Virus record (IMG/VR): IMGVR_UViG_3300029324_000094
Span: 1-64,000 of that record
Source: a virus
Reading direction: 5' to 3' (one strand)
DNA length: 64,000 bases
Of the stretch, positions 20,920-50,105 are shown one piece after another. How positions within the stretch are numbered: the first letter of the stretch is position 1; every line of letters starts with the position of its first letter. The translations under genes and the position numbers were made by a program. Under the pieces are notes generated by a model that saw nothing but the letters and a program-made list of their open reading frames with translations, had not been told where the DNA came from and made no database searches.

Positions 20920-21354
20920 TTATCGGGAAACATATTTTGACAACCTCTTTGATACAGTAGAACGCTCCATACACATTATTTCTGCAATCTCCTGTTGACA
21001 CAACCCGTCCTTTGTGTACTCAAGAATCGCCTTGTCCTCGACGTCTTTGCAATTTGCTATCACATTGTCAATCGCAAGTTCCAGCTCATTCAGATACCGA
21101 ATGTCTGATTGGATCTGCTCTTCAATTATTCGGCAATCTTCTTCCCATTTCTTCATCTGCTGCCGCTCATACTCCGCACACCCAGTAATAGTAAATCCTC
21201 TTGTTTCATACGGGAACTGCGGATTTGACCCATAAACCTTTCCTGAATAATAAGATGGACGCTTTTCTATGTACCGTTCAAGCTTTTTCTTATCCTTTTC
21301 AAGAAGGATTCCAAGTAACTTATAATTTGCGATATCTCTTCTCGTAATTTCCAT
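20920..21354 (-). CDS. Sigma-70 region-4-like HTH protein (RinA/ArpU-like late regulator?) between terminase and portal
   Basis: C-terminal DKAILEYTKDGLCQQEIAEIMCMERSTVSKRLSKYV resembles sigma-70 region 4. Confidence 0.4.
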   Translation of the reverse strand: MEITRRDIANYKLLGILLEKDKKKLERYIEKRPSYYSGKVYGSNPQFPYETRGFTITGCAEYERQQMKKWEEDCRIIEEQIQSDIRYLNELELAIDNVIANCKDVEDKAILEYTKDGLCQQEIAEIMCMERSTVSKRLSKYVSR

Positions 21355-21368
21355 TCTCTGTATCCTCC

Positions 21369-24080
21369 TTAAATTGGACTTTGTATAATTTGTGCCGCCC
21401 TAACGAAACCAGTTGTAACAAATAATGCAAAACTCGCCAATCCGTCCGGCACATCATCGTGTGGATTCTTCCCACGCACTGAATAACTCAACAGAAATCC
21501 CATCATTCTTCCGTAATCATCTTTCGGTTTATAATGTTCACGATCCCTAAAGAGGACGTGCTTCTTTACCCAATCTGCATTGACAATAATCTTTGTTTCC
21601 TTATTAGATTCCGTGTACTTTGTGGTTATGTTGCAGGCACCGCCTTTTTGCTCAACAAGCTTACTTACTTCAAGTGCTACACGGTCCCCACCATTGTTTG
21701 ACTCGAACTGACACTGTTGCATTTTAGTATTAACTATCAAATCCGATGTCCGCTCATACTGGATTCCGTAATTGGAATTATCATCACAAACACAGTCTGT
21801 AAGATAAAAGTCGTTTCCGTACTGCAACATACAAGGCAAAAACAAATAGTCAGTACCTTTATTTTTCGTATCGCAGATGCCCCATACAGCGTCAGGCTCA
21901 GTAACCGGCAACGTAATGAATCTCCGCAATTCTTCATCTGTATACAGGAGTCCTTCACGTTCGATAGGTTCATTCTTATACAGACACTTGTAGGTGATCT
22001 CATCCATTGTGAGTTCCTGGTCATGGAAAAACTCAACGCTGAAACCATTGTACTTGTAATCGAAATTCGACTCCCCAGTGATAGGGTCTATGTCCGGTAT
22101 GGCAATAAATCTTGCCCTGTCATTTCCATCGTAAATATCAATTAGTCGCCCAATGACATCATGCACGGACCATCTCGTAGCAATATGGATTTCTTTGCAG
22201 CCATCCATTTTTCTCTGTTTGGCGTCAGTACCGTAGATTCTCCAAAGCTTGTCCAGAATATTTTTATTCAATGCTTCTTCGATACCACCAATCAAATCAT
22301 CACAATACAGATATCTATTTGCACGGACTTTACCGGCATTCTTACTTCCAACAGATGTACACTGGATATTTGAGAACGGTTTGTATTTATTGAAATTTAT
22401 GGTTTCTCTCTTGGCATTTGTGCTATGAAATTTCACGTCTGGGAAAATCTCTTGCCAGCAATATTCATCTGAGTTCGTTGTAATATCCATAACCCCGTCA
22501 TAGAACATTCTGGTAATATCTCCACTGTGTGAGAAAAACAAACTGAAATCATCCGGGTGTCTTCCGATTATCCATGAACAGAAAAACTTTTCAAGAGTGG
22601 TGTTATGCGTAATGATATAATCATCTGTAATATATAAATGACTTTCATCATCAATGTAAATGCATTGGCACTCTTCTTCACCGATGTATTCTATCTCTGA
22701 TATGAATCTCTTCATAACTTTTCTTTTTGGAGTATATTTTTCAGCTTTTCTTGTCAGAGAAAATATACTATCCATGCCAGAGGTAAATTGTATGATAATC
22801 TCAAAATAATCATTGCATTGTTTATACTTACCATTTTTCTTATATCCGGCTTTACGTTTGTTTTTACTTGCATAACCTCCAAGAGAATGAACAAGTTCGC
22901 ATACATCATTTGCAAGATGTTCTGAAATTGTAGCGTATGTACAATAATATTTTGAAGCAGATCCGTCTGTATCCATAAGACCTCTCAAAAGCCACAATCT
23001 CTGCTCATAACTTCCATATAGATAATCTTTCGGTATGAATTTATCTATACTCTTCTTTCCGAATAATCCGAGCCTATCAAGTTCTTTTCTGACTAAGCTT
23101 CCAACTTTTGCATTATCGCCTTCATGTCCACTAACAAAATATGTACATCTCTCTTTATATTTCAAGCTATATCCATCAGGTAAAAAACTGTCAAATCTAT
23201 CCAACAATTCTTTGTCTACAGAGCTTAGCAAAACACTACCACCAGTTAATCCGCCATCTCCGATAAGTGCACCGACAACATACGGGTGCAGGGAAAATTC
23301 TTTTTTCTCAAAACAATCGATCTTAGGAACATAATCTATTGAATAATTTTTTCTCTTTCCATTCTCCAACTTGTAATTTTTAAGCATTTCAGACAGCTCT
23401 ACTGTCCTGTATTTTTCGCTACCATCTTTATTCTTTCGTCTGCGATCATCTCTTGTTTGTACCGTCCATAAGTGATTATCCGAACATCTCGTCTTGGAAC
23501 CATCATCGAAGGTCACCTCATACATCTTTCGCTTCTTTCTTGGTGAGATACTAAGCACGGTTGCTACTTTTCCTGTTCCAGAAATTACCTTTGTACCTAC
23601 TTTGACGTCCCCCATTTGTATAAATCCATTTGGCGTCAATATCTTTGAATATAAAGGTTGACACTTCTGCGTTCCCGGTGGCATGGAAATTGAAAGGATG
23701 TCAAGTTTGTCATCCTCAAGATCCTGCATTGCCTGAATCAATCCATGCTTATTCAGTTGTTTCCTTTTCGGGGAGTAGAAGCGATCCTGTTCTAATCGTT
23801 TTCGCTCAAGATAAAGTAGATAGCTGTCAAACAAATGAGGTGCCTCAAACTTTAAAGCTTGCCAGTACAAGGTTTCAAACCGCACATCCTGATTCTTTAT
23901 CAGTAATCTCTGAGCCGATAACTTAACCGCCTTTGAGAGTTTCAGGCAGTATTGCAGATAGTCATGATTATCCTCATACATATTCAGGCACAACTGCATA
24001 ATATTATCCCATGTACTATATTTATTTGTATCCTGCATTTTCAATGCGTTTGCTAATCTCTTATACTCTCTAAACTCCAT
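21369..24080 (-). CDS. terL: Terminase large subunit interrupted by an intein
   Basis: Likely start MEFREYKRL behind a GGGAGA RBS; the ORF-table start at 24125 has no good RBS. ATPase P-loop PPGTQK|..|TTLEKFF is split by a 354-aa Cys1...HN/T intein. C-terminal nuclease domain contains HDDVPD. Confidence 0.85.
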   Translation of the reverse strand: MEFREYKRLANALKMQDTNKYSTWDNIMQLCLNMYEDNHDYLQYCLKLSKAVKLSAQRLLIKNQDVRFETLYWQALKFEAPHLFDSYLLYLERKRLEQDRFYSPKRKQLNKHGLIQAMQDLEDDKLDILSISMPPGTQKCQPLYSKILTPNGFIQMGDVKVGTKVISGTGKVATVLSISPRKKRKMYEVTFDDGSKTRCSDNHLWTVQTRDDRRRKNKDGSEKYRTVELSEMLKNYKLENGKRKNYSIDYVPKIDCFEKKEFSLHPYVVGALIGDGGLTGGSVLLSSVDKELLDRFDSFLPDGYSLKYKERCTYFVSGHEGDNAKVGSLVRKELDRLGLFGKKSIDKFIPKDYLYGSYEQRLWLLRGLMDTDGSASKYYCTYATISEHLANDVCELVHSLGGYASKNKRKAGYKKNGKYKQCNDYFEIIIQFTSGMDSIFSLTRKAEKYTPKRKVMKRFISEIEYIGEEECQCIYIDDESHLYITDDYIITHNTTLEKFFCSWIIGRHPDDFSLFFSHSGDITRMFYDGVMDITTNSDEYCWQEIFPDVKFHSTNAKRETINFNKYKPFSNIQCTSVGSKNAGKVRANRYLYCDDLIGGIEEALNKNILDKLWRIYGTDAKQRKMDGCKEIHIATRWSVHDVIGRLIDIYDGNDRARFIAIPDIDPITGESNFDYKYNGFSVEFFHDQELTMDEITYKCLYKNEPIEREGLLYTDEELRRFITLPVTEPDAVWGICDTKNKGTDYLFLPCMLQYGNDFYLTDCVCDDNSNYGIQYERTSDLIVNTKMQQCQFESNNGGDRVALEVSKLVEQKGGACNITTKYTESNKETKIIVNADWVKKHVLFRDREHYKPKDDYGRMMGFLLSYSVRGKNPHDDVPDGLASFALFVTTGFVRAAQIIQSPI
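22602..23663 (-). other. Intein with LAGLIDADG homing-endonuclease domain inside terL
   Basis: Starts CQPLYSKILTPNG (block A) and ends YIITHN followed by +1 Thr. Carries LAGLIDADG-like motifs ALIGDGGL and LLRGLMDTDGS. Confidence 0.8.
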
Positions 24081-24143
24081 GTTTCTCCCTAAATCAAAAA
24101 AGAGCCAATATCTGCAATTTCTCACAAATATCAGCTCTGGCTC

Positions 24144-25856: not shown

Positions 25857-25879
25857 TTCATCACGCTCCTTTTCTAAAA

Positions 25880-25951
25880 CTGGCATAGACGGAATCGAAC
25901 CAGCGACATCTTGGTTAACGGCCAAGCGTTCTGCCTCTGAACTATATGCCA
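25880..25951 (-). tRNA. tRNA-Asn (GTT), with C rather than U at position 33
   Basis: Cloverleaf folds with T-loop GGTTCGATTCC, a 7-bp acceptor stem, D-stem GTTC/GAAC and anticodon stem CTTGG/CCAAG with loop CCGTTAA. Confidence 0.6.
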
Positions 25952-26512
25952 ATAAAACATGATTAGAGTTTCCTCTTATTCACCACGGTAAAAGTCATAT
26001 TCTGCCACTGTGATGATAGGTCTGAGCTTCTGAGAGCGACTCTTGGCTTCCTACCACTGTCTAAGCACACATGGGATTGATACCCACAAATTTCACGGTT
26101 CTTTCAGAGAATTTAATGTTTTTCTTATCGCCTTTAAAACATTTTGTTCGAATTAAGAACTTGCCATACCGCTACTTTAACGAATTTCTTGTGTTATACT
26201 CTGATTTCTCGGATTCAAGGCAAATCAGCTTACTTGAGATTTCCGGTTAGTCCGTAGTCTCTCACACTACTCACATCACCGGATTATTCTTGCACCGCAA
26301 GCGTCTATTCTACGCTGACCACAAGGATTCTGCATTTAACTTCTCTATGATGATACACTGCAAAGCATTGTTGACGGTTTCCGTCTCCACCAATGAAATC
26401 ACTTCCACTGGAAAGAATCAGTTAATCCAGTATCCCGAATTAACCTATCTCGCTATCATTGCATCTCAGCAGGATTGAAAAATCCATCTGCACTGAGTTA
26501 ATCATGTTTGAA

Positions 26513-26584
26513 CAGACCGAATAGGGATCGAACCTATAATTGCGGTTTTGGAGACCGCTGTTTTGCCAATTAAACTATCGACCT
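26513..26584 (-). tRNA. tRNA-Trp (CCA)
   Basis: Anticodon stem GCGGT/ACCGC with loop CTCCAAA; T-arm ATAGG-TTCGATC-CCTAT; acceptor AGGTCGA/TCGGTCT. Confidence 0.6.
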
Positions 26585-26586
26585 AC

Positions 26587-26655
26587 AAGGTAATGGGGAA
26601 TCGAACCCCAACATACGGAGTCAAAGTCCGTTGCTCTACCGTTGAGCTATTACCC
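26587..26655 (-). tRNA. tRNA-Gln (TTG)
   Basis: Anticodon stem ACGGA/TCCGT with loop CTTTGAC; T-loop GGGGTTCGATTCCCC; acceptor GGGTAAT/ATTACCT. Confidence 0.6.
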
Positions 26656-26662
26656 GATAAAA

Positions 26663-26733
26663 TTACTGCATTCGGAATCGAACCGAAACCTATTAGCCAT
26701 TCGCTAATCATTCTGCCGCTTAAACTATACAGT
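26663..26733 (-). tRNA. Atypical tRNA-like gene: anticodon loop CGAATGG (G33, apparent anticodon AAU)
   Basis: Good acceptor stem (TACTGTA/TGCAGTA), T-arm (TTCGG-TTCGATT-CCGAA) and anticodon stem (ATTAG/CTAAT). The anticodon loop is non-canonical. Confidence 0.4.
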
Positions 26734-26791
26734 ACACTGGAAAATCACTATGAAAGAAAAAGGTCTCCAGGAAATTCCACTCCCCGGAGAA

Positions 26792-26865
26792 AGCTACCAC
26801 TCGGACTCGAACCGAAAACCTGTTGATTCGTAATCAACTGTTCTATCCATTTGAGCTATGGTAGC
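26792..26865 (-). tRNA. tRNA-Arg (ACG)
   Basis: Anticodon stem GTTGA/TCAAC with loop TTACGAA; acceptor GCTACCA/TGGTAGC. Confidence 0.6.
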
Positions 26866-26942
26866 ATATCGCGGTTTTTATATTTTGATTCAGGGTGGGG
26901 AGTCCGAAAAAATATTTATCTGAGAACCGCGAAGCTCAGAAA

Positions 26943-27016
26943 TAGCAGATGTCGGAGTCGAACCGACTATTTCAAGATCATGACTCTTGCGTGGTATTCC
27001 GTTCCACTCATCTGCA
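26943..27016 (-). tRNA. tRNA-Met or tRNA-Ile2 (CAT)
   Basis: Anticodon stem CAAGA/TCTTG with loop GTCATGA; T-arm GTCGG-TTCGACT-CCGAC; the 1:72 pair is a T.T mismatch. Confidence 0.55.
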
Positions 27017-27018
27017 AA

Positions 27019-27101
27019 CGCCGTATGAAGGATTCGAACCTCCAAGTCGTTTCCGACCGAATGGTTAGCAACCATCTCCAATACCATTATGGGAATACGG
27101 C
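27019..27101 (-). tRNA. tRNA-Ser (GCT), class II
   Basis: Anticodon loop TTGCTAA; long variable arm CGGTCGGAAACGACTT; T-arm GGAGG-TTCGAAT-CCTTC; acceptor GCCGTAT/ATACGGC. Confidence 0.6.
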
Positions 27102-30596: not shown

Positions 30597-30689
30597 ATAT
30601 ATATTCTATTCTTTTCTTCTCTATTCTTCTCTTATCTTCTCTGGGTTGCCAATTGGTATACCAACCGGTTACAAACCGGTATACCAAGC
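30597..30689. repeat. Ori-like repeat block, non-coding copy: pyrimidine tract plus palindromes CCAATTGG, GGTATACC and AACCGGTT with AACCGGT iterons 11 bp apart
   Basis: About 85% identical to 49659..49733 (inside the replisome-organiser gene) in the same orientation. Preceded by the 8-bp inverted repeat TTGTGCAT/ATGCACAA at 30564..30590. Confidence 0.6.
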
Positions 30690-41168: not shown

Positions 41169-41564
41169 TTATTCTTTGTACTTCTGCAAAATCTCTGTAA
41201 TTGCTTTCATGTGATCTGCTGCTTCCATCAAATCTTCATCACCAATCGAATCAAGACCGTATTTCCTATTAAAATCCTCAAACGCATATCTTCCATCTCT
41301 AAATTGTTCAAACATGATAGCTAATTCATTTTCTTTTTCCGAATTTTCATCACACTCATAAAAAATTTCATTTTTGTCATGTTCTCCAAACTTATCAGTA
41401 AAGAATTTTGTCCGCTTTGGAGTGATTCTTGTGATTTTTGCCGGAGTAATTAACTGATGCCGGAATGATGAACGCCATCCACAACTCACGTCTCTCGCAA
41501 CACCAACAATATCCCCGACTTTCAATGTGTCTTTGTCTATCTCTTTTAATTTAATGTTCATCAA
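41169..41564 (-). CDS. Hypothetical protein
   Basis: ORF only. Confidence 0.35.
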   Translation of the reverse strand: MMNIKLKEIDKDTLKVGDIVGVARDVSCGWRSSFRHQLITPAKITRITPKRTKFFTDKFGEHDKNEIFYECDENSEKENELAIMFEQFRDGRYAFEDFNRKYGLDSIGDEDLMEAADHMKAITEILQKYKE

Positions 41565-44061
41565 TTCTCATCCTTTCCGCAATCGCTTCGATCACATTTA
41601 CAGTAACTCCATTTCCGGCTTGCTTGTACAACTGACTGTCAGAATTTACAAACGCAGCTTTTTCAAAATAATCATCCGTCCACCCTTGCAGTCTGAAACA
41701 TTCTTTCGGAGTCAATCGCCGGATTGCTATGTAGCATTGATATTTTTCATACCAGACAGCATATACGGTCAGTTCTTCCGACACTTGTACGAAAATCCCT
41801 TGATTGCAACTGGTATCAAGCGTATTTGCTATGTCATGCCCTACTCTACCTCTTCTCGTTTTACTTCCTGGTACAGCCAAATTTACGCTATCAACACCAA
41901 CTCTGCATTCCGAATATCCTTGTTTTGTCGCTTCTGTTACTTTTACTGCAAGCTGATTATCTTTATTGACGGTGGACAATGTATTCACTACTCCATCATC
42001 TCTGACTTCGCTTTCGAGGAATTCATGTCTGGAGATTTTGATGTTTCCAGCTTCATAATCTTTGCGGATTTCTTTTCCGTAATCACTACGAACATTCCGT
42101 AGTACTCCGATCGGCTCTATTCCTACTCCATGTCTATCCTGTCCCGTAAGCGTAAACATTGGTTCTCCGTCTTCCTTGAATCTCCGTCCGTTCTGACGTT
42201 TTTCTGCCCTATCTGGTGTTAATACCGGAATAGCAATTCCGCTATCTTGCCCTGCGTGGTTCGATGCTCCTTTGTGATATCTTGCCTTCAGGCATCGTGC
42301 CTGCTCCGTCATCTTCGAGCCTTCATGACACAAGTCAATGAAGCATGGCAAGGCACCATGTTGCCTTCCGCCGCCTTGACAAGTGCTTAATGCTTCTGTG
42401 ATTCCATCTTGTGCAAATACCTGCGTATTTCTTCTGTAACCGTCCCTGTGACCTATTATTTGAATACTATTTTCTCCGTCTGCTCTTTCGACAGGAAATA
42501 CTTTTGCGGTACTTCTCCCTCTAAGATGTCCGATAATGAAACACCTTTCTCTGTTTTGTGGGACTCCGAAATCTTTGGAGTTGAGTACTTGCCATTCTGC
42601 ATCATACCCTGCTTGTTCCATTTCAATGAGCAGTCTGGCGAAATCCCATCCTCCATTAACACTAAGCAGATTCTTAACGTTCTCAATGAAAAGGTAAGTG
42701 GGTTTATCTTCTTCTTTGAGCTGTCCGATAAGGTACATAACTCTGAAAAACAAGCTTGAACGGTTTCCTTGAAATCCAAGTTGCTTTCCGGCAACTGAGA
42801 TATCTTGGCAATTGTGGACAATTGCTCCGTTTGCAACATATGAGTTGTCTTCTTCAACACTGATGTTATACACTGTTCCAAAATCATCAGATTCTGTTGG
42901 CTGATACAATTCTCTGCAAACATATCTTGCACGATAATGTCCTTTAACTGATTTACTAGAGATTCGGAATGTATATGTATCTCTTTGTCGGCATTCCCTT
43001 CCTTGGATAACACATTTTTCATCTCTTCTAGTGTAGTAAACAGCTGGAACAGATTTTCCAAGTCGCTGTGCAATGATGCACATGCCAAGAACGAGTGCTG
43101 CGCTGGTTGATGTTGCTTCTTCTCGATCACTTCTTCCATCACCGGACATATATCCATCGAAGAAGTATTTTGCTTTCTCTCGTGGCAAACACAATGCTTC
43201 TCTTGGAACTCGTTTTCCATGTGCGTATTTTCCGAACTTTTCAAGGTATTCGTATAATTGGTTATTGCACACATGATACTTTCCACAAGTTCGTTCTTTT
43301 GTGTAAGTTCCATGTAGTTTCGCTTCTCGCAATCGCTGTTCGAATTCTGCCCTCTTATCATCGCTGATTGCGAACACGATTCTTCCTCCACTTGGTCTGT
43401 CTTTTCTTTCAACTCTCCACCCATCAGCAAGATAACGTCCGATAATCCACCACATTTCCTTGCTGTATCCATCGGATTCTGCATCAGGCAAAACCATTGT
43501 GGAATACCAACTGTCATCAAGTTGTTCCACTTTTTTGAATTCCATTGGCTGATCTGGTTTAGTGACATAATACGGATGCTCTGCCGTGGTTCTTGTTGGC
43601 AATATTCCGAATCCATTGACATCCCAGAGTCTTGCTCCGTCCCTGTGCATTGTTGCTGTGACTTTTCTCCATCTTCCTTTGTGCGTAAGGACTTTATCTC
43701 CGACAGATACATCTTCAATTGGGATATATCCTTTTTCTGTAAGAATATAAGTTCCTTTGGCAAAACATGGGAATCCGAAACACCAACAGTCTGCTTTCGG
43801 AATGTCTCCGGTATACACTCGTCTAATGTCATTTGCGTACCATTCTCCGTTTCTGTATTCATCTTTTAAAATCTCCTTTTGTCGCTTTTTCAGTGGTAAT
43901 TCTTCCAGTACTTTTCTCTGCTCATCTGTCAGAAGATGCATGGATATGTAGCTTGCAGTCGCAAATTTATCAAATTCACAAAAACCAACACACTCATGTC
44001 CAGCAAGTTCCATTCCCTTTCGGAAACCACCTATTCCGGCGAAAAAATCTATAAATTTCAC
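41551..44061 (-). CDS. dcm: DNA cytosine-5 methyltransferase (Dcm) interrupted by an intein
   Basis: Motif I FAGIGGF. Motif IV GFPC|Q is split by a 319-aa intein. Also ENV, QNRER, and motifs IX/X (QAGNGVTVNV). Confidence 0.85.
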   Translation of the reverse strand: MKFIDFFAGIGGFRKGMELAGHECVGFCEFDKFATASYISMHLLTDEQRKVLEELPLKKRQKEILKDEYRNGEWYANDIRRVYTGDIPKADCWCFGFPCFAKGTYILTEKGYIPIEDVSVGDKVLTHKGRWRKVTATMHRDGARLWDVNGFGILPTRTTAEHPYYVTKPDQPMEFKKVEQLDDSWYSTMVLPDAESDGYSKEMWWIIGRYLADGWRVERKDRPSGGRIVFAISDDKRAEFEQRLREAKLHGTYTKERTCGKYHVCNNQLYEYLEKFGKYAHGKRVPREALCLPREKAKYFFDGYMSGDGRSDREEATSTSAALVLGMCIIAQRLGKSVPAVYYTRRDEKCVIQGRECRQRDTYTFRISSKSVKGHYRARYVCRELYQPTESDDFGTVYNISVEEDNSYVANGAIVHNCQDISVAGKQLGFQGNRSSLFFRVMYLIGQLKEEDKPTYLFIENVKNLLSVNGGWDFARLLIEMEQAGYDAEWQVLNSKDFGVPQNRERCFIIGHLRGRSTAKVFPVERADGENSIQIIGHRDGYRRNTQVFAQDGITEALSTCQGGGRQHGALPCFIDLCHEGSKMTEQARCLKARYHKGASNHAGQDSGIAIPVLTPDRAEKRQNGRRFKEDGEPMFTLTGQDRHGVGIEPIGVLRNVRSDYGKEIRKDYEAGNIKISRHEFLESEVRDDGVVNTLSTVNKDNQLAVKVTEATKQGYSECRVGVDSVNLAVPGSKTRRGRVGHDIANTLDTSCNQGIFVQVSEELTVYAVWYEKYQCYIAIRRLTPKECFRLQGWTDDYFEKAAFVNSDSQLYKQAGNGVTVNVIEAIAERMRIDEH
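42811..43767 (-). other. Intein with LAGLIDADG homing endonuclease inside dcm
   Basis: Starts CFAKGTYILTEKG and ends NGAIVHN followed by +1 Cys. Carries IIGRYLADGW and FFDGYMSGDG. Confidence 0.8.
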
Positions 44062-49245: not shown

Positions 49246-50105
49246 TCAGGATGTTCGCTTAAGATTCCATAATCAAGTCCTTGTCCATCGTAAATAGCAC
49301 CCGCATCTTCTAACTGCTTGCGGAAACTCGATTCCAAACAGGAAAAACGGTCACAAGGTTCTCTTGGTTTTTCTAAGTCCTCCGATTCCTGCCCCCAGTT
49401 TTCATCCAAATAATCAACATACCCACTGTTGAAAAATGTGCTTCCGTGCATCCAATATTTACGATCTCTACCGCTGTCACTCATATCTTTCAAGAATCGA
49501 TCAACACAACGTCCAATCTGATCGTATCCGATTTTTTGAAGTGCTTTCTTCCTTGATGTTGATACCTGCCCTTTCCCTTTTTTGATTGGATATAACTTCC
49601 AAATAGATTCAAAGAAGTCATCAAGTGATTGTTCATCGTGCAGTTTTTCTGCACTATATATACTATTCTTTTCTTCTCTATTCTTCTCTATTCTATTCTG
49701 GGTATCCAACCGGTTACAAACTGGTATACCAAGCGGTAAAACGTCCGAAGATTCCACGGCATTTCTAAAGGAATATCTGCCATTCGGTTGCACTGTTAGA
49801 TGTGATTTTTCTTCCTGGTAAATCGTTTCCGTGTATCTGTCTTTCCTCAAATAATTATTAATTCTCCAATGCTTGATTACACAGATCCCGTCTGGAAACT
49901 GTATGACAAATGATTTCGCAACAAGCAGATCGTAATCATTCTGATTTGCACCGATGATCTTCATTACCTTTTTAGCGTTGTTCAAAAATCCATCATCATC
50001 AGCTCTCATAGATAGGTGGAAATACAATGCTTGTGTTGATAATGGCATTTCTAAGAAAGCATCTGAATCAACAATTTGTTTGGAGAACATTCTTTTTTCT
50101 GCCAA
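49212..50105 (-). CDS. Replisome organiser protein (Phage_rep_org_N-like)
   Basis: N-terminal LEMPLSTQALYFHLSMRADDDGF. The gene body contains the iteron/palindrome block. Confidence 0.7.
   Translation of the reverse strand: MAEKRMFSKQIVDSDAFLEMPLSTQALYFHLSMRADDDGFLNNAKKVMKIIGANQNDYDLLVAKSFVIQFPDGICVIKHWRINNYLRKDRYTETIYQEEKSHLTVQPNGRYSFRNAVESSDVLPLGIPVCNRLDTQNRIEKNREEKNSIYSAEKLHDEQSLDDFFESIWKLYPIKKGKGQVSTSRKKALQKIGYDQIGRCVDRFLKDMSDSGRDRKYWMHGSTFFNSGYVDYLDENWGQESEDLEKPREPCDRFSCLESSFRKQLEDAGAIYDGQGLDYGILSEHPDWLKKIQESGV
49659..49733. repeat. Ori-like iteron/palindrome block inside the replisome-organiser gene
   Basis: ccAACCGGTtacaAACtGGTatacc preceded by a pyrimidine tract; homologous to 30597..30689. 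Confidence 0.6.

What the first reader, a model, noticed from the sequence alone, without database searches (positions are those of the whole stretch)
21369..24080. Large terminase interrupted by a second LAGLIDADG intein in the ATPase P-loop
PPGTQK-[C...354 aa...HN]-TTLEKFF; two LAGLIDADG motifs. The terminase P-loop is a known intein hot-spot. Two independent inteins in one roughly 63-kb prophage (terL and dcm) is notable. DNA packaging and the methyltransferase would both depend on splicing.
Basis: partly seen in the sequence, partly recalled or inferred. Interest (0 to 1): 0.6.

Follow-up and report, generated by a model that had tools for sequence, protein, structure and literature searches.

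The report
Intein splitting a phage terminase P-loop
The phage DNA-packaging enzyme gene is interrupted, exactly inside its ATP-binding loop, by a self-splicing mobile protein element. This is a well-known kind of element at a well-known site, but this copy belongs to the rarer "class 3" lineage while keeping the first cysteine that class 3 members normally lack.

Summary
The ORF at 21369-24080 (-) encodes a 903-aa large terminase (TerL) precursor. A 354-aa insert (22602-23663) runs PPGTQK|C...THN|TTLEKFF. Removing it gives a 549-aa protein. Twenty-seven intein-free homologues (90-94% identical; 26 of 549 aa, one of 535 aa) read PPG[TA]QK-TTLEKFF across that junction.

The insert folds as a HINT splicing domain plus a LAGLIDADG homing endonuclease (pLDDT 91; best match PI-SceI). 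The spliced product folds as a large terminase. The split falls between Lys and Thr of the Walker A loop.

The refinement is that this is not an ordinary class 1 intein. It carries the class 3 signature: Trp66 (B:12), Cys334 (F:4), Thr352 (G:5), with Thr+1. Among 94 orthologous TerL inteins, residue 1 is Cys in 46, Ala in 45 and Gly in 2, while W/C/T/H/N/+1T are essentially invariant. In 159 inteins of the wider family, WCT is universal and Ala1 dominates.

Splicing is therefore probably started by Cys334, not Cys1 (inferred, untested). The dcm intein is an unrelated class 1 intein (20% identity). Prophage status was not shown.

Verdict: a real, ordinary intein and a new member of a known kind. 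The Cys1+WCT hybrid is mildly interesting.

The parts
21369..24080 (-). terL precursor gene: 903 codons plus a stop at 21369-21371. ATG at 24080, Shine-Dalgarno AGGGAG at 24085-24090.
   Evidence: The homologue P0001 (903 aa, 94% identity) starts at the same Met.
23664..24080 (-). N-extein, aa 1-139. It ends ...ILSISMPPGTQK, i.e. a beta-strand plus the first half of the Walker A loop.
   Evidence: In the model of the intein-free homologue, strand 128-132 is followed by a loop and then a helix from 139.
22602..23663 (-). Intein, 354 aa (Cys1 ... Thr352-His353-Asn354). GC 0.35 against 0.40 in the exteins.
23364..23663 (-). N-terminal splicing (HINT) subdomain, intein residues about 1-100. Cys1 is at 23661-23663. 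Block B is Ser61-x-x-His64-x-Trp66: His64 at 23472-23474, Trp66 (B:12) at 23466-23468.
   Evidence: phmmer to gp41-1 at 1.4e-13 and to the class 3 MchDnaB1 and Msm DnaBi1 inteins. Residue positions. pN/pS 0.024.
22734..23363 (-). LAGLIDADG homing endonuclease domain, intein residues about 101-310. Catalytic Asp136 at 23256-23258 and Asp233 at 22965-22967.
   Evidence: Pfam LAGLIDADG_3 and Hom_end. Fold matches PI-SceI, TliVMA and I-DmoI. Asp conserved in 90/94 and 94/94. pN/pS 0.10.
22602..22733 (-). C-terminal splicing subdomain, intein residues 311-354. Block F is EECQCIYIDDESHLY with Cys334 (F:4) at 22662-22664. Block G is IITHN: Thr352 (G:5), His353, Asn354 at 22602-22610.
   Evidence: Cys334 aligns to the branch-point Cys124 of MchDnaB1, and THN aligns to THN. 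Conserved in 94/94.
21372..22601 (-). C-extein, 410 aa. It begins with Thr+1 (22599-22601), which is the Walker A Thr. It then carries Walker B (YLYCDD), the ATRWS motif and the RNase H-like nuclease domain.
   Evidence: invariant D240, D241, T281-S284, D383, E439, D521/D522 in spliced numbering; PF22530, below cutoff

Best explanation
The gene encodes a large-terminase precursor whose Walker A loop (PPGTQK|TT) is split between Lys139 and Thr140 by a 354-aa mobile intein. The intein is a HINT splicing domain with a LAGLIDADG homing endonuclease nested inside it.

After translation the intein excises itself and joins Lys139 to Thr+1. This produces the 549-aa TerL found in intein-free sister phages. 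Until then the ATPase cannot have a functional P-loop, so DNA packaging depends on splicing (inferred).

The intein belongs to the class 3 (Trp-Cys-Thr) lineage of P-loop inteins. The most likely chemistry has four steps (inferred from family conservation and from published class 3 biochemistry, not shown here):
1. Cys334 (block F:4), positioned by His64, Trp66 and Thr352, attacks the Lys139 carbonyl and forms a block F thioester branch.
2. The N-extein is passed to the hydroxyl of Thr+1.
3. Asn354 cyclises and releases the intein.
4. An O-to-N shift gives the peptide bond.

Cys1, which class 3 inteins normally lack, is probably dispensable or an auxiliary or secondary nucleophile.

The endonuclease domain is intact and under purifying selection. 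It presumably cuts intein-free terL alleles during co-infection and copies the intein in (homing). This would explain its patchy distribution.
For: Shown:
- Exact junction and length.
- 27 intein-free alleles, 90-94% identical in the extein (26 of 549 aa, one of 535 aa), read PPG.QK-TTLEKFF.
- The DNA is collinear with the intein-free allele after removing 1062 bp, in a syntenic terL-portal-MuF-capsid block.
- The spliced product aligns without a gap to annotated terminases, with the junction at PPGTGK|S/T.
- The model of the intein-free homologue matches solved terminases, with the site at the strand-loop-helix P-loop (pLDDT 88.8; 8dgc_E at 3.4e-18; T4 gp17; D6E; Sf6).
- The intein model (pLDDT 91.4, pTM 0.90) matches PI-SceI at 2.6e-18, the TliVMA intein, gp41-1, the MchDnaB1 and Msm DnaBi1 inteins and I-DmoI.

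Class 3 lineage:
- Trp66, Cys334 and Thr352 align to the WCT residues of the solved class 3 MchDnaB1 and Msm DnaBi1 inteins.
- In 94 TerL orthologues, residue 1 is C 46, A 45, G 2. By contrast W is 93/94, and Cys F:4, Thr G:5, His, Asn and Thr+1 are each 94/94.
- In 159 full-length inteins from the 150 best 50%-identity representatives, W is 159, Cys F:4 is 159, Thr is 158 and Asn is 159. Residue 1 is Ala in 113 and Cys in 5. The flanks are mostly GK|T/S.
- Published definition and mechanism: PMC2807308, PMC5222942, PMC7664689.

Activity and mobility:
- pN/pS is 0.07 over the intein (0.02-0.04 in the splicing parts, 0.10 in the endonuclease).
- P0014 has an intein 91% identical to this one in an extein only 55% identical.
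- The closest exteins are mostly intein-free.
- Synonymous divergence is lower in the intein (0.51) than in the exteins (0.71-0.94).
Against: - Nothing here shows splicing, a branched intermediate or DNA cleavage. All mechanistic steps are inferred.
- The window's intein does have Cys1. It therefore fails the formal class 3 criterion 'no N-terminal nucleophile' and could splice by the class 1 route.
- Its best solved sequence match is gp41-1, a class 1 intein.
- The 46:45 Cys/Ala ratio comes from the 120 hits most similar to the query, so it is not an unbiased frequency.
- The Walker A of this clade has Gln where Gly is usual (PPGTQKT). It is recognisable only through its alignment to PPGTGK[ST] relatives.
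- I could not read model coordinates, so I could not measure Cys334 or Cys1 distances to the scissile bond.
Confidence: 0.85

Rival explanations
1. This is a standard class 1 intein. Cys1 makes the N-S acyl shift, Thr+1 attacks that thioester, and Asn354 cyclises. Under this reading the WCT residues are only an inherited structural feature.
For: - Cys1 is present and is conserved in all 46 members of its subgroup.
- Block B Ser-x-x-His, the penultimate His, the terminal Asn and a +1 nucleophile are all present.
- The closest solved sequence is the class 1 gp41-1 intein (1.4e-13).
- A WCT graft alone did not make gp41-1 splice as class 3 (PMC7664689).
Against: - Cys F:4, Trp B:12 and Thr G:5 remain invariant in every Cys1 member. 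If Cys1 had taken over, F:4 would be free to drift to the class 1 Asp.
- About half of the listed orthologues at the same site, 55-72% identical over the intein, have Ala or Gly at position 1 and must splice without it.
- All nearest relatives in a 1.8-billion-protein library carry WCT.
- An Ala1 orthologue gives the same PDB ranking, so the gp41-1 similarity is not specific to Cys1 members.
Confidence: 0.3
2. The intein is decayed or non-splicing and sits in a defective prophage. Under this reading TerL is dead and the element is a relic.
For: - No experimental evidence of splicing exists.
- A related terL in a Lacrimispora chromosome is disrupted by an insertion element, so decayed copies of this phage type do exist.
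- An inactive class 3-like intein pseudogene is known (PMC3196547).
Against: - The 903-codon frame is intact and every catalytic residue is present.
- Purifying selection is strong on the splicing domains, the endonuclease domain and both exteins (pN/pS 0.02-0.10).
- The 90% cluster of the nearest homologue holds 342 member sequences and was read on 13 contigs, with complete structural modules next to it.
Confidence: 0.03
3. The 354-aa segment is an ordinary inserted domain of this terminase family that stays in the mature protein.
For: None beyond the segment being in frame.
Against: - Intein-free alleles of the predicted spliced length exist.
- The segment has a HINT plus LAGLIDADG fold.
- It carries intein blocks A, B, F and G.
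- It would sit in the middle of the P-loop.
Confidence: 0.01

Closest known systems
Class 3 (WCT) P-loop inteins: mycobacteriophage Bethlehem DnaB intein, M. smegmatis DnaBi1 (PDB 6BS8), M. chimaera DnaB1 (6RIX/6RIY)
   Same: - Trp B:12, Cys F:4 and Thr G:5, with THN and Thr/Ser at +1.
- Insertion in an ATPase P-loop of a phage or helicase-type protein.
- Most carry a LAGLIDADG endonuclease.
- The residues align directly, and all nearest relatives carry WCT.
- Tori et al. already listed phage terminase large subunits among the hosts (PMC2807308).
   Different: - The window's copy begins with Cys. The class is defined by lacking Ser, Thr or Cys at position 1. Only 3 of 37 WCT inteins in PMC2807308, and 8 of 159 here, have Cys1 or Ser1.
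- Sequence identity to the solved class 3 inteins is only about 30% over the N-terminal part.
- The host is a Lachnospiraceae-type phage terminase rather than an actinobacterial DnaB.
Mycobacteriophage TerL1-a/b P-loop inteins (Kelley et al. 2016, PMC5050341)
   Same: - The host protein is TerL.
[quoted passage not shown]
- Both are LAGLIDADG-bearing, patchily distributed and thought to be mobile between phages.
   Different: - The terminase family and the hosts differ.
- The class 3 terminase inteins named in that paper's discussion, as read, are TerL1-c and TerL1-e, which are not P-loop insertions (TerL1-e is in Walker B). Here a WCT intein occupies the P-loop site.
- I did not compare sequences directly.
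gp41-1 intein (class 1, cyanophage-like helicase; PDB 6QAZ; WCT-grafted variant 6RIZ)
   Same: - It is the best solved sequence match (1.4e-13 to 2e-16).
- It shares Cys1, the Ser-x-x-His block B and the THN end.
- The engineered gp41-1_WCT scores even better, because it carries the same Trp and Cys.
   Different: - gp41-1 is naturally split, lacks an endonuclease, and has Phe at B:12 and Asp at F:4.
- The WCT graft did not splice (PMC7664689), whereas the natural family here keeps WCT with either Cys1 or Ala1.
PI-SceI (Sce VMA1 intein) and the TliVMA intein
   Same: The overall two-domain architecture is the same: HINT plus a nested LAGLIDADG endonuclease. These are the best structural matches (2.6e-18, TM about 0.7).
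   Different: They are class 1 inteins in V-ATPase subunits, with only 17-20% identity.

Membership tests
Intein (HINT protein-splicing element) | In-frame insert that is absent from orthologous alleles, with the flanks joining into a conserved host motif | tested here: met
   27 intein-free homologues (26 of 549 aa, one of 535 aa) read PPG.QK-TTLEKFF. The DNA is collinear after removing 1062 bp. The junction aligns to PPGTGK|S/T of annotated terminases.
Intein (HINT protein-splicing element) | Splicing blocks: A (residue 1), B (T/S-x-x-H), F, G (His-Asn), followed by a Cys/Ser/Thr at +1 | tested here: met
   Cys1, Ser61/His64, His342, His353-Asn354 and Thr+1 are present. They align to the gp41-1 and DnaB inteins. 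They are invariant in 94 orthologues, except residue 1.
Intein (HINT protein-splicing element) | HINT fold | tested here: met
   AF2 model with pLDDT 91.4. Foldseek hits include PI-SceI, the TliVMA/PhoVMA inteins, gp41-1 and MchDnaB1.
Intein (HINT protein-splicing element) | Actual excision and extein ligation | not testable with these tools
   Needs expression with SDS-PAGE and MS, or virion proteomics.
Class 3 inteins | Trp at B:12, Cys at F:4, Thr at G:5 (WCT triplet) | tested here: met
   Trp66, Cys334 and Thr352 align to Trp67, Cys124 and Thr143 of MchDnaB1. Conserved in 93/94, 94/94 and 94/94.
Class 3 inteins | No Ser/Thr/Cys nucleophile at intein position 1 | tested here: not met
   The window has Cys1 (codon TGT at 23661-23663). 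The criterion is met in 47 of 94 orthologues (Ala 45, Gly 2). In the wider family residue 1 is Ala in 113 of 159, while Cys or Ser occurs in only 8. By the strict published definition the window's copy is therefore a 'WCT intein with Cys1' and not a formal class 3 member.
Class 3 inteins | Ser or Thr (rarely Cys) at +1 | tested here: met
   Thr+1, 94/94. In the wider family: T 125, S 32, C 2.
Class 3 inteins | Nearest relatives are class 3 inteins (the class is reported as monophyletic) | tested here: met
   All 159 full-length domains in the 150 best representatives carry Trp B:12 and Cys F:4. No formal phylogeny with class 1 outgroups was made.
Class 3 inteins | Block F branched thioester intermediate; splicing requires Cys F:4 and not residue 1 | not testable with these tools
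   Needs C1A, C334A, T+1A and N354A mutants.
LAGLIDADG homing endonuclease | Two LAGLIDADG helices with catalytic acidic residues, in the alpha-beta-beta-alpha-beta-beta-alpha fold | tested here: met
   Asp136 and Asp233. PF14528 at 3.8e-9 and PF05204 at 4e-5. Fold hits to PI-SceI and I-DmoI. pN/pS 0.10.
LAGLIDADG homing endonuclease | Cleavage of the intein-free allele, and patchy horizontal distribution | tested here: inconclusive
   The distribution is patchy, and intein and extein histories disagree (P0014: intein 91%, extein 55%). Cleavage itself was not testable.
Large terminase (TerL) | N-terminal ASCE ATPase (Walker A/B) plus C-terminal RNase H-like nuclease, encoded next to the portal gene | tested here: met
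   phrog_38 at 2e-45. Foldseek hits to PhiV-1, T4 gp17, D6E, Sf6, T7 and HK97 terminases. Invariant DD (Walker B), TRWS and nuclease acidic residues. The portal gene lies one gene downstream. Walker A deviates: PPGTQKT.

The most novel reading that the evidence does not exclude
[quoted passage not shown] Orthologous inteins at one site carry either Cys1 or Ala1 on the same invariant WCT/THN chassis, and their closest solved relative is the class 1 gp41-1 intein.

The window's Cys1+WCT copy could use either nucleophile, or both. It could also use a Cys1-Cys334 disulfide as a redox brake on terminase maturation.

If so, it would speak directly to the open dispute over class 3 origins. One view is that class 3 inteins diverged from class 1 inteins (Tori and Perler). 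The other is that they arose separately (Beyer et al. 2020). A 2025 paper calls gp41-1 'transitional' and asks for more evidence.
Probability: 0.2. Interest if true: 0.55.

Novelty: new member of a known kind. Interest (0 to 1): 0.33.

Why it matters
For annotation, the gene should be called as one terL with an intein, and the mature protein is 549 aa. Gene callers and Pfam see only a weak LAGLIDADG hit and no terminase domain.

For phage biology, packaging in this phage depends on a post-translational step. The intein-plus and intein-minus alleles in otherwise syntenic gut phages of Lachnospiraceae document ongoing homing.

For intein chemistry, the family offers about 90 natural orthologues split roughly evenly between Cys1 and Ala1 on an invariant WCT background. 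This makes a ready-made system to test whether residue 1 matters in WCT inteins, and how class 1 and class 3 mechanisms interconvert.

None of this changes the general picture. Inteins in terminase P-loops and class 3 inteins of phage origin have been described since 2010.

Tried and rejected
- Megablast of the gene and of a 20-kb neighbourhood against 50,697 phage records found no close relative, only one 137-bp hit. Identification therefore rests on protein-level searches.
- A PDB sequence search with the spliced extein found nothing. I replaced it with structure prediction and Foldseek.
- A MAFFT DNA alignment of intein-plus and intein-minus alleles misplaced the gap. I replaced it with direct codon-register comparison.
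- A whole-intein NJ tree suggested about 8 switches of residue 1. Region-wise analysis showed that Cys1 is tightly linked to intein positions 38-45, 58 and 63, and is nearly monophyletic for the N-terminal subdomain. I therefore do not claim many independent Cys/Ala switches within the TerL family. Recombination between intein parts is the simpler reading.
- The idea that the 38-45 hairpin is a necessary co-adaptation to Cys1 was rejected. Cys1/Ser1 WCT inteins in other host proteins keep the 'Ala-type' hairpin GVYPQG.
- The idea that Gln in PPGTQK is an adaptation to the intein was rejected. 24 of 27 intein-free alleles have it too.
- A common origin of the terL and dcm inteins was rejected: 20% identity and different block residues.
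- Tori and Perler 2011 (PMC3133030) is the paper that tested WCT inteins with Ser1/Cys1. It is not held, so I cannot cite its result.
- Model coordinates are not exposed, so no active-site distances could be measured.
- A search for an integrase in the scanned ORFs was negative.
Full report
**Observation.** The minus-strand ORF at 21369..24125 is open for 918 codons. The ATG at 24080 has an AGGGAG Shine-Dalgarno sequence 4 nt upstream. It coincides with the start of the closest homologues.

Translation gives ...DILSISMPPGTQK | CQPLYSKILTPNGF...DDYIITHN | TTLEKFFCSW.... The bracketed segment is exactly 354 aa, at window 22602-23663. It contains two LAGLIDADG motifs with their acidic residues, Asp136 and Asp233. 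The description is accurate.

**The insert is an intein and not a domain.** A search of 5.8 billion proteins with the precursor returned about 93 homologues of roughly 900 aa. It also returned 27 homologues that lack the segment (26 of 549 aa, one of 535 aa). 549 aa is the length predicted for the spliced product.

- Those 27 are 90-94% identical to the window's exteins and read PPG[T/A/S]QK-TTLEKFF straight across the predicted junction.
- One of them lies on a 63,689-bp contig with the same gene order: terL, a 144-aa gene, SPP1-type portal, Mu F-like, capsid, tail and tape measure.
- Removing the 1062 intein bases from the window gives a 1650-bp ORF that matches that allele codon for codon, at 81% nt identity with no gaps.

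Pfam finds LAGLIDADG_3 (3.8e-9) and Hom_end (4e-5) above their cutoffs. The Hint-type models fall below theirs. PHROG terminase, primase and helicase-loader families hit the insert only through their own inteins.

The insert's N- and C-terminal parts match the gp41-1 intein (1.4e-13) and the MchDnaB1 and Msm DnaBi1 inteins in the PDB. An AlphaFold model built on 67 sequences is confident (pLDDT 91.4, pTM 0.90). Its best structural matches are PI-SceI (2.6e-18), the TliVMA and PhoVMA inteins and PI-PfuI. Mini-inteins and I-DmoI match the two sub-domains.

**The host is a large terminase, and the site is the P-loop.**

- The spliced sequence hits phrog_38, 'terminase large subunit', at 2e-45.
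- It aligns as a single tblastn piece to 175 phage records, many annotated as terminase, including Dulem virus 39, Clostridium phage Maintenon and Geobacillus phage GBK2.
- In the alignment the junction falls at PPGTGK|S/T, the Walker A motif.
- A model of the 94%-identical intein-free homologue (pLDDT 88.8) shows strand 128-132, a loop, and a helix starting at 139. The insertion point lies between Lys139 and Thr140 at the loop-helix boundary.
- The model's best PDB matches are terminases: PhiV-1 at 3.4e-18, then T4 gp17, D6E, Sf6, T7 and HK97.

One oddity concerns this clade's Walker A. It has Gln where Gly normally precedes Lys (PPGTQKT). This is not an intein effect, because 24 of 27 intein-free alleles share it.

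**What kind of intein.** This is where the reading needs refining. The intein has Trp66 at block B position 12, Cys334 at block F position 4 and Thr352 at block G position 5, followed by His-Asn and Thr+1.

HMMER aligns these residues to Trp67, Cys124 and Thr143 of the solved class 3 MchDnaB1 intein, and to the same residues of Msm DnaBi1. This Trp-Cys-Thr triplet is the published signature of class 3 inteins. [quoted passage not shown]

Family statistics agree:

| Set | Residue 1 | Other key residues |
|---|---|---|
| 94 intein-bearing TerL homologues | Cys 46, Ala 45, Gly 2 | Trp B:12 93/94; Cys F:4, Thr G:5, His, Asn and Thr+1 each 94/94 |
| 159 full-length inteins from the 150 best representatives | Ala 113, Cys 5, Ser 3 | Trp 159/159; Cys F:4 159/159; Thr 158/159; Asn 159/159; flanks mostly GK\|T or GK\|S |

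The second set comes from an exhaustive HMMER scan of 1.84 billion cluster representatives with the intein alone, which found 13,119 proteins at E ≤ 1e-10.

The element thus belongs to the large class 3 lineage of P-loop inteins. [quoted passage not shown]

The window's copy is unusual within that lineage only in having Cys at position 1. Such 'WCT inteins with Ser1/Cys1' were recorded as 3 of 37 in 2010 and flagged for study. A later census of 1,701 class 3 inteins excluded them by definition (PMC7891396).

**Mechanism.** The following steps are shown by sequence and comparative evidence:
- the precise boundaries;
- the presence of all catalytic residues;
- the fold;
- the existence of the predicted ligated product in nature.

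The chemistry is inferred. I consider the class 3 route the more likely one: Cys334 attacks, the N-extein transfers to Thr+1, Asn354 cyclises, and an O-to-N shift follows. My estimate is about 0.6, against 0.3 for class 1 through Cys1. Three observations support this:
- Half of the listed orthologues must splice without a position 1 nucleophile.
- Cys F:4, Trp B:12 and Thr G:5 show no relaxation in any of the 46 Cys1 members.
- An Ala1 orthologue has the same PDB similarity profile as the Cys1 copy.

Dependence of packaging on splicing is inferred from the position of the 354-aa insert inside the P-loop.

**Is it alive and mobile?** I compared the window with the P0001 allele (L006).

| Region | pN/pS | pS |
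|---|---|---|
| N-terminal splicing part | 0.024 | 0.53 |
| Endonuclease domain | 0.10 | 0.48 |
| C-terminal splicing part | 0.044 | 0.62 |
| Whole intein | 0.07 | 0.51 |
| Exteins | 0.04-0.06 | 0.71-0.94 |

Both intein functions are under purifying selection. Synonymous divergence is lower in the intein than in the exteins.

- The closest exteins to the window's are overwhelmingly intein-free.
- One homologue (P0014) has an intein 91% identical to this one inside an extein only 55% identical.
- Intein and extein identities correlate weakly (r = 0.33).

All of this fits horizontal spread by homing. I did not, and could not, show cleavage.

**Cys1 versus Ala1 within the TerL family.** A whole-intein tree interleaves the two states. 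However, residue 1 is perfectly linked to positions 40, 42 and 43, and nearly to positions 38, 45, 58 and 63.

Fitch changes of residue 1 by region are: N-terminal sub-domain 4, endonuclease 13, C-terminal part 21, exteins 16. The simplest reading is a single Cys1 N-terminal variant nested within Ala1 diversity and shuffled by recombination.

The hairpin change is probably a lineage marker rather than a requirement. Cys1/Ser1 WCT inteins in other host proteins keep the Ala-type hairpin.

**Context.**
- The window carries a phage structural module: GH25 endolysin, tape measure, capsid and SPP1-type portal.
- It has seven tRNA genes just upstream of terL.
- It encodes RecT-like, SbcC-like, DnaB-like, N6/N4 methylase and antirepressor genes.
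- It contains a Dcm methyltransferase interrupted at GFP|CQ by a 319-aa intein at 42811-43767.

The dcm intein has Thr-x-x-His, Tyr at B:12, Val-His-Asn and Cys+1. It is therefore class 1.

Relatives of this terL occur in Dorea, Lacrimispora and Clostridium genome assemblies, which suggests Lachnospiraceae hosts. I found no integrase in the ORFs I scanned, so 'prophage' remains unproven.

**Comparison and novelty.** In function and architecture this is a textbook mobile intein at a textbook site. By lineage it is a class 3-type P-loop intein. By the strict published definition it fails one criterion, because it has Cys1. I therefore file it as a WCT intein of the class 3 lineage, not as a formal class 3 member.

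The closest solved relative by sequence is gp41-1. A 2025 paper calls gp41-1 'transitional' between classes 1 and 3 (PMC12245125). Beyer et al. argued from a failed WCT graft on gp41-1 that class 3 could not derive from class 1. A natural family with Cys1 and Ala1 orthologues on one WCT chassis is a useful test bed for that dispute. That is the only part a specialist would find noteworthy.

Overall: the finding is confirmed and ordinary in kind, a new member of a known kind, with interest about 0.33.

Noticed in passing
window 22602-23663 (-), intein residues 1, 38-45, 58, 63; homologues P0001-P0120: Among 91 orthologous TerL inteins, Cys1 versus Ala1 is perfectly linked to positions 40, 42 and 43. 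The Cys1 group has S-x-[VIR]-K and the Ala1 group has [YF]-x-Q-G. Linkage is nearly perfect for positions 38, 45, 58 and 63. The rest of the intein and the exteins are interleaved between the two groups. This looks like two N-terminal variants shuffled by recombination.
   Followed up: partly
window 23664-23684 and 22596-22601 (-): Walker A PPGTQK|TT: The Walker A of this TerL clade has Gln instead of the near-universal Gly before the Lys. The same is true of 24 of 27 intein-free alleles. More distant relatives have PPGTGK[ST].
   Followed up: partly
window 42811-43767 (-), within ORF 41551-44061: A second intein (319 aa, with LAGLIDADG motifs) splits the Dcm cytosine methyltransferase at GFP|CQ, so the catalytic Cys is the +1 residue. 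It has class 1 features (T-x-x-H, VHN, Cys+1) and is 20% identical to the terL intein.
   Followed up: partly
window 25879-27101 (-): An array of seven tRNA genes (Asn, Trp, Gln, Ile, Arg, Met, Ser) lies between the terL region and the upstream genes.
   Followed up: no
L016 2527-6690 (Lacrimispora xylanisolvens chromosome NZ_CP070896.1): An intein-free terL homologue (PPGTQKTTLEKFF) is split after ...LIGGIEE by an insertion of about 2.2 kb. The insertion carries a 275-aa ORF on the opposite strand that I take, untested, to be a transposase. This looks like a decayed prophage copy.
   Followed up: no
window 21369-24080 versus L006 10001-12712: Synonymous divergence between the window and the 94%-identical P0001 allele is lower in the intein (pS 0.51) than in the N-extein (0.94) and the C-extein (0.71). 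This suggests the intein was shared more recently than the surrounding gene.
   Followed up: partly
window 20920-21354 (-): A 144-aa gene sits between terL and the portal gene. It has weak hits to transcription-regulator and sigma-factor PHROGs, and it is conserved at the same position in all related contigs.
   Followed up: no
window 30598-30657 and 49655-49714: A 60-nt pyrimidine-rich direct repeat (85% identical) occurs twice, 19 kb apart. It is the only long direct repeat in the window.
   Followed up: no
whole window: No integrase or recombinase was found among the ORFs scanned with Pfam and PHROGs. A related intein-free contig is 63,689 bp. The window may be a near-complete phage genome rather than a demonstrable prophage.
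   Followed up: partly
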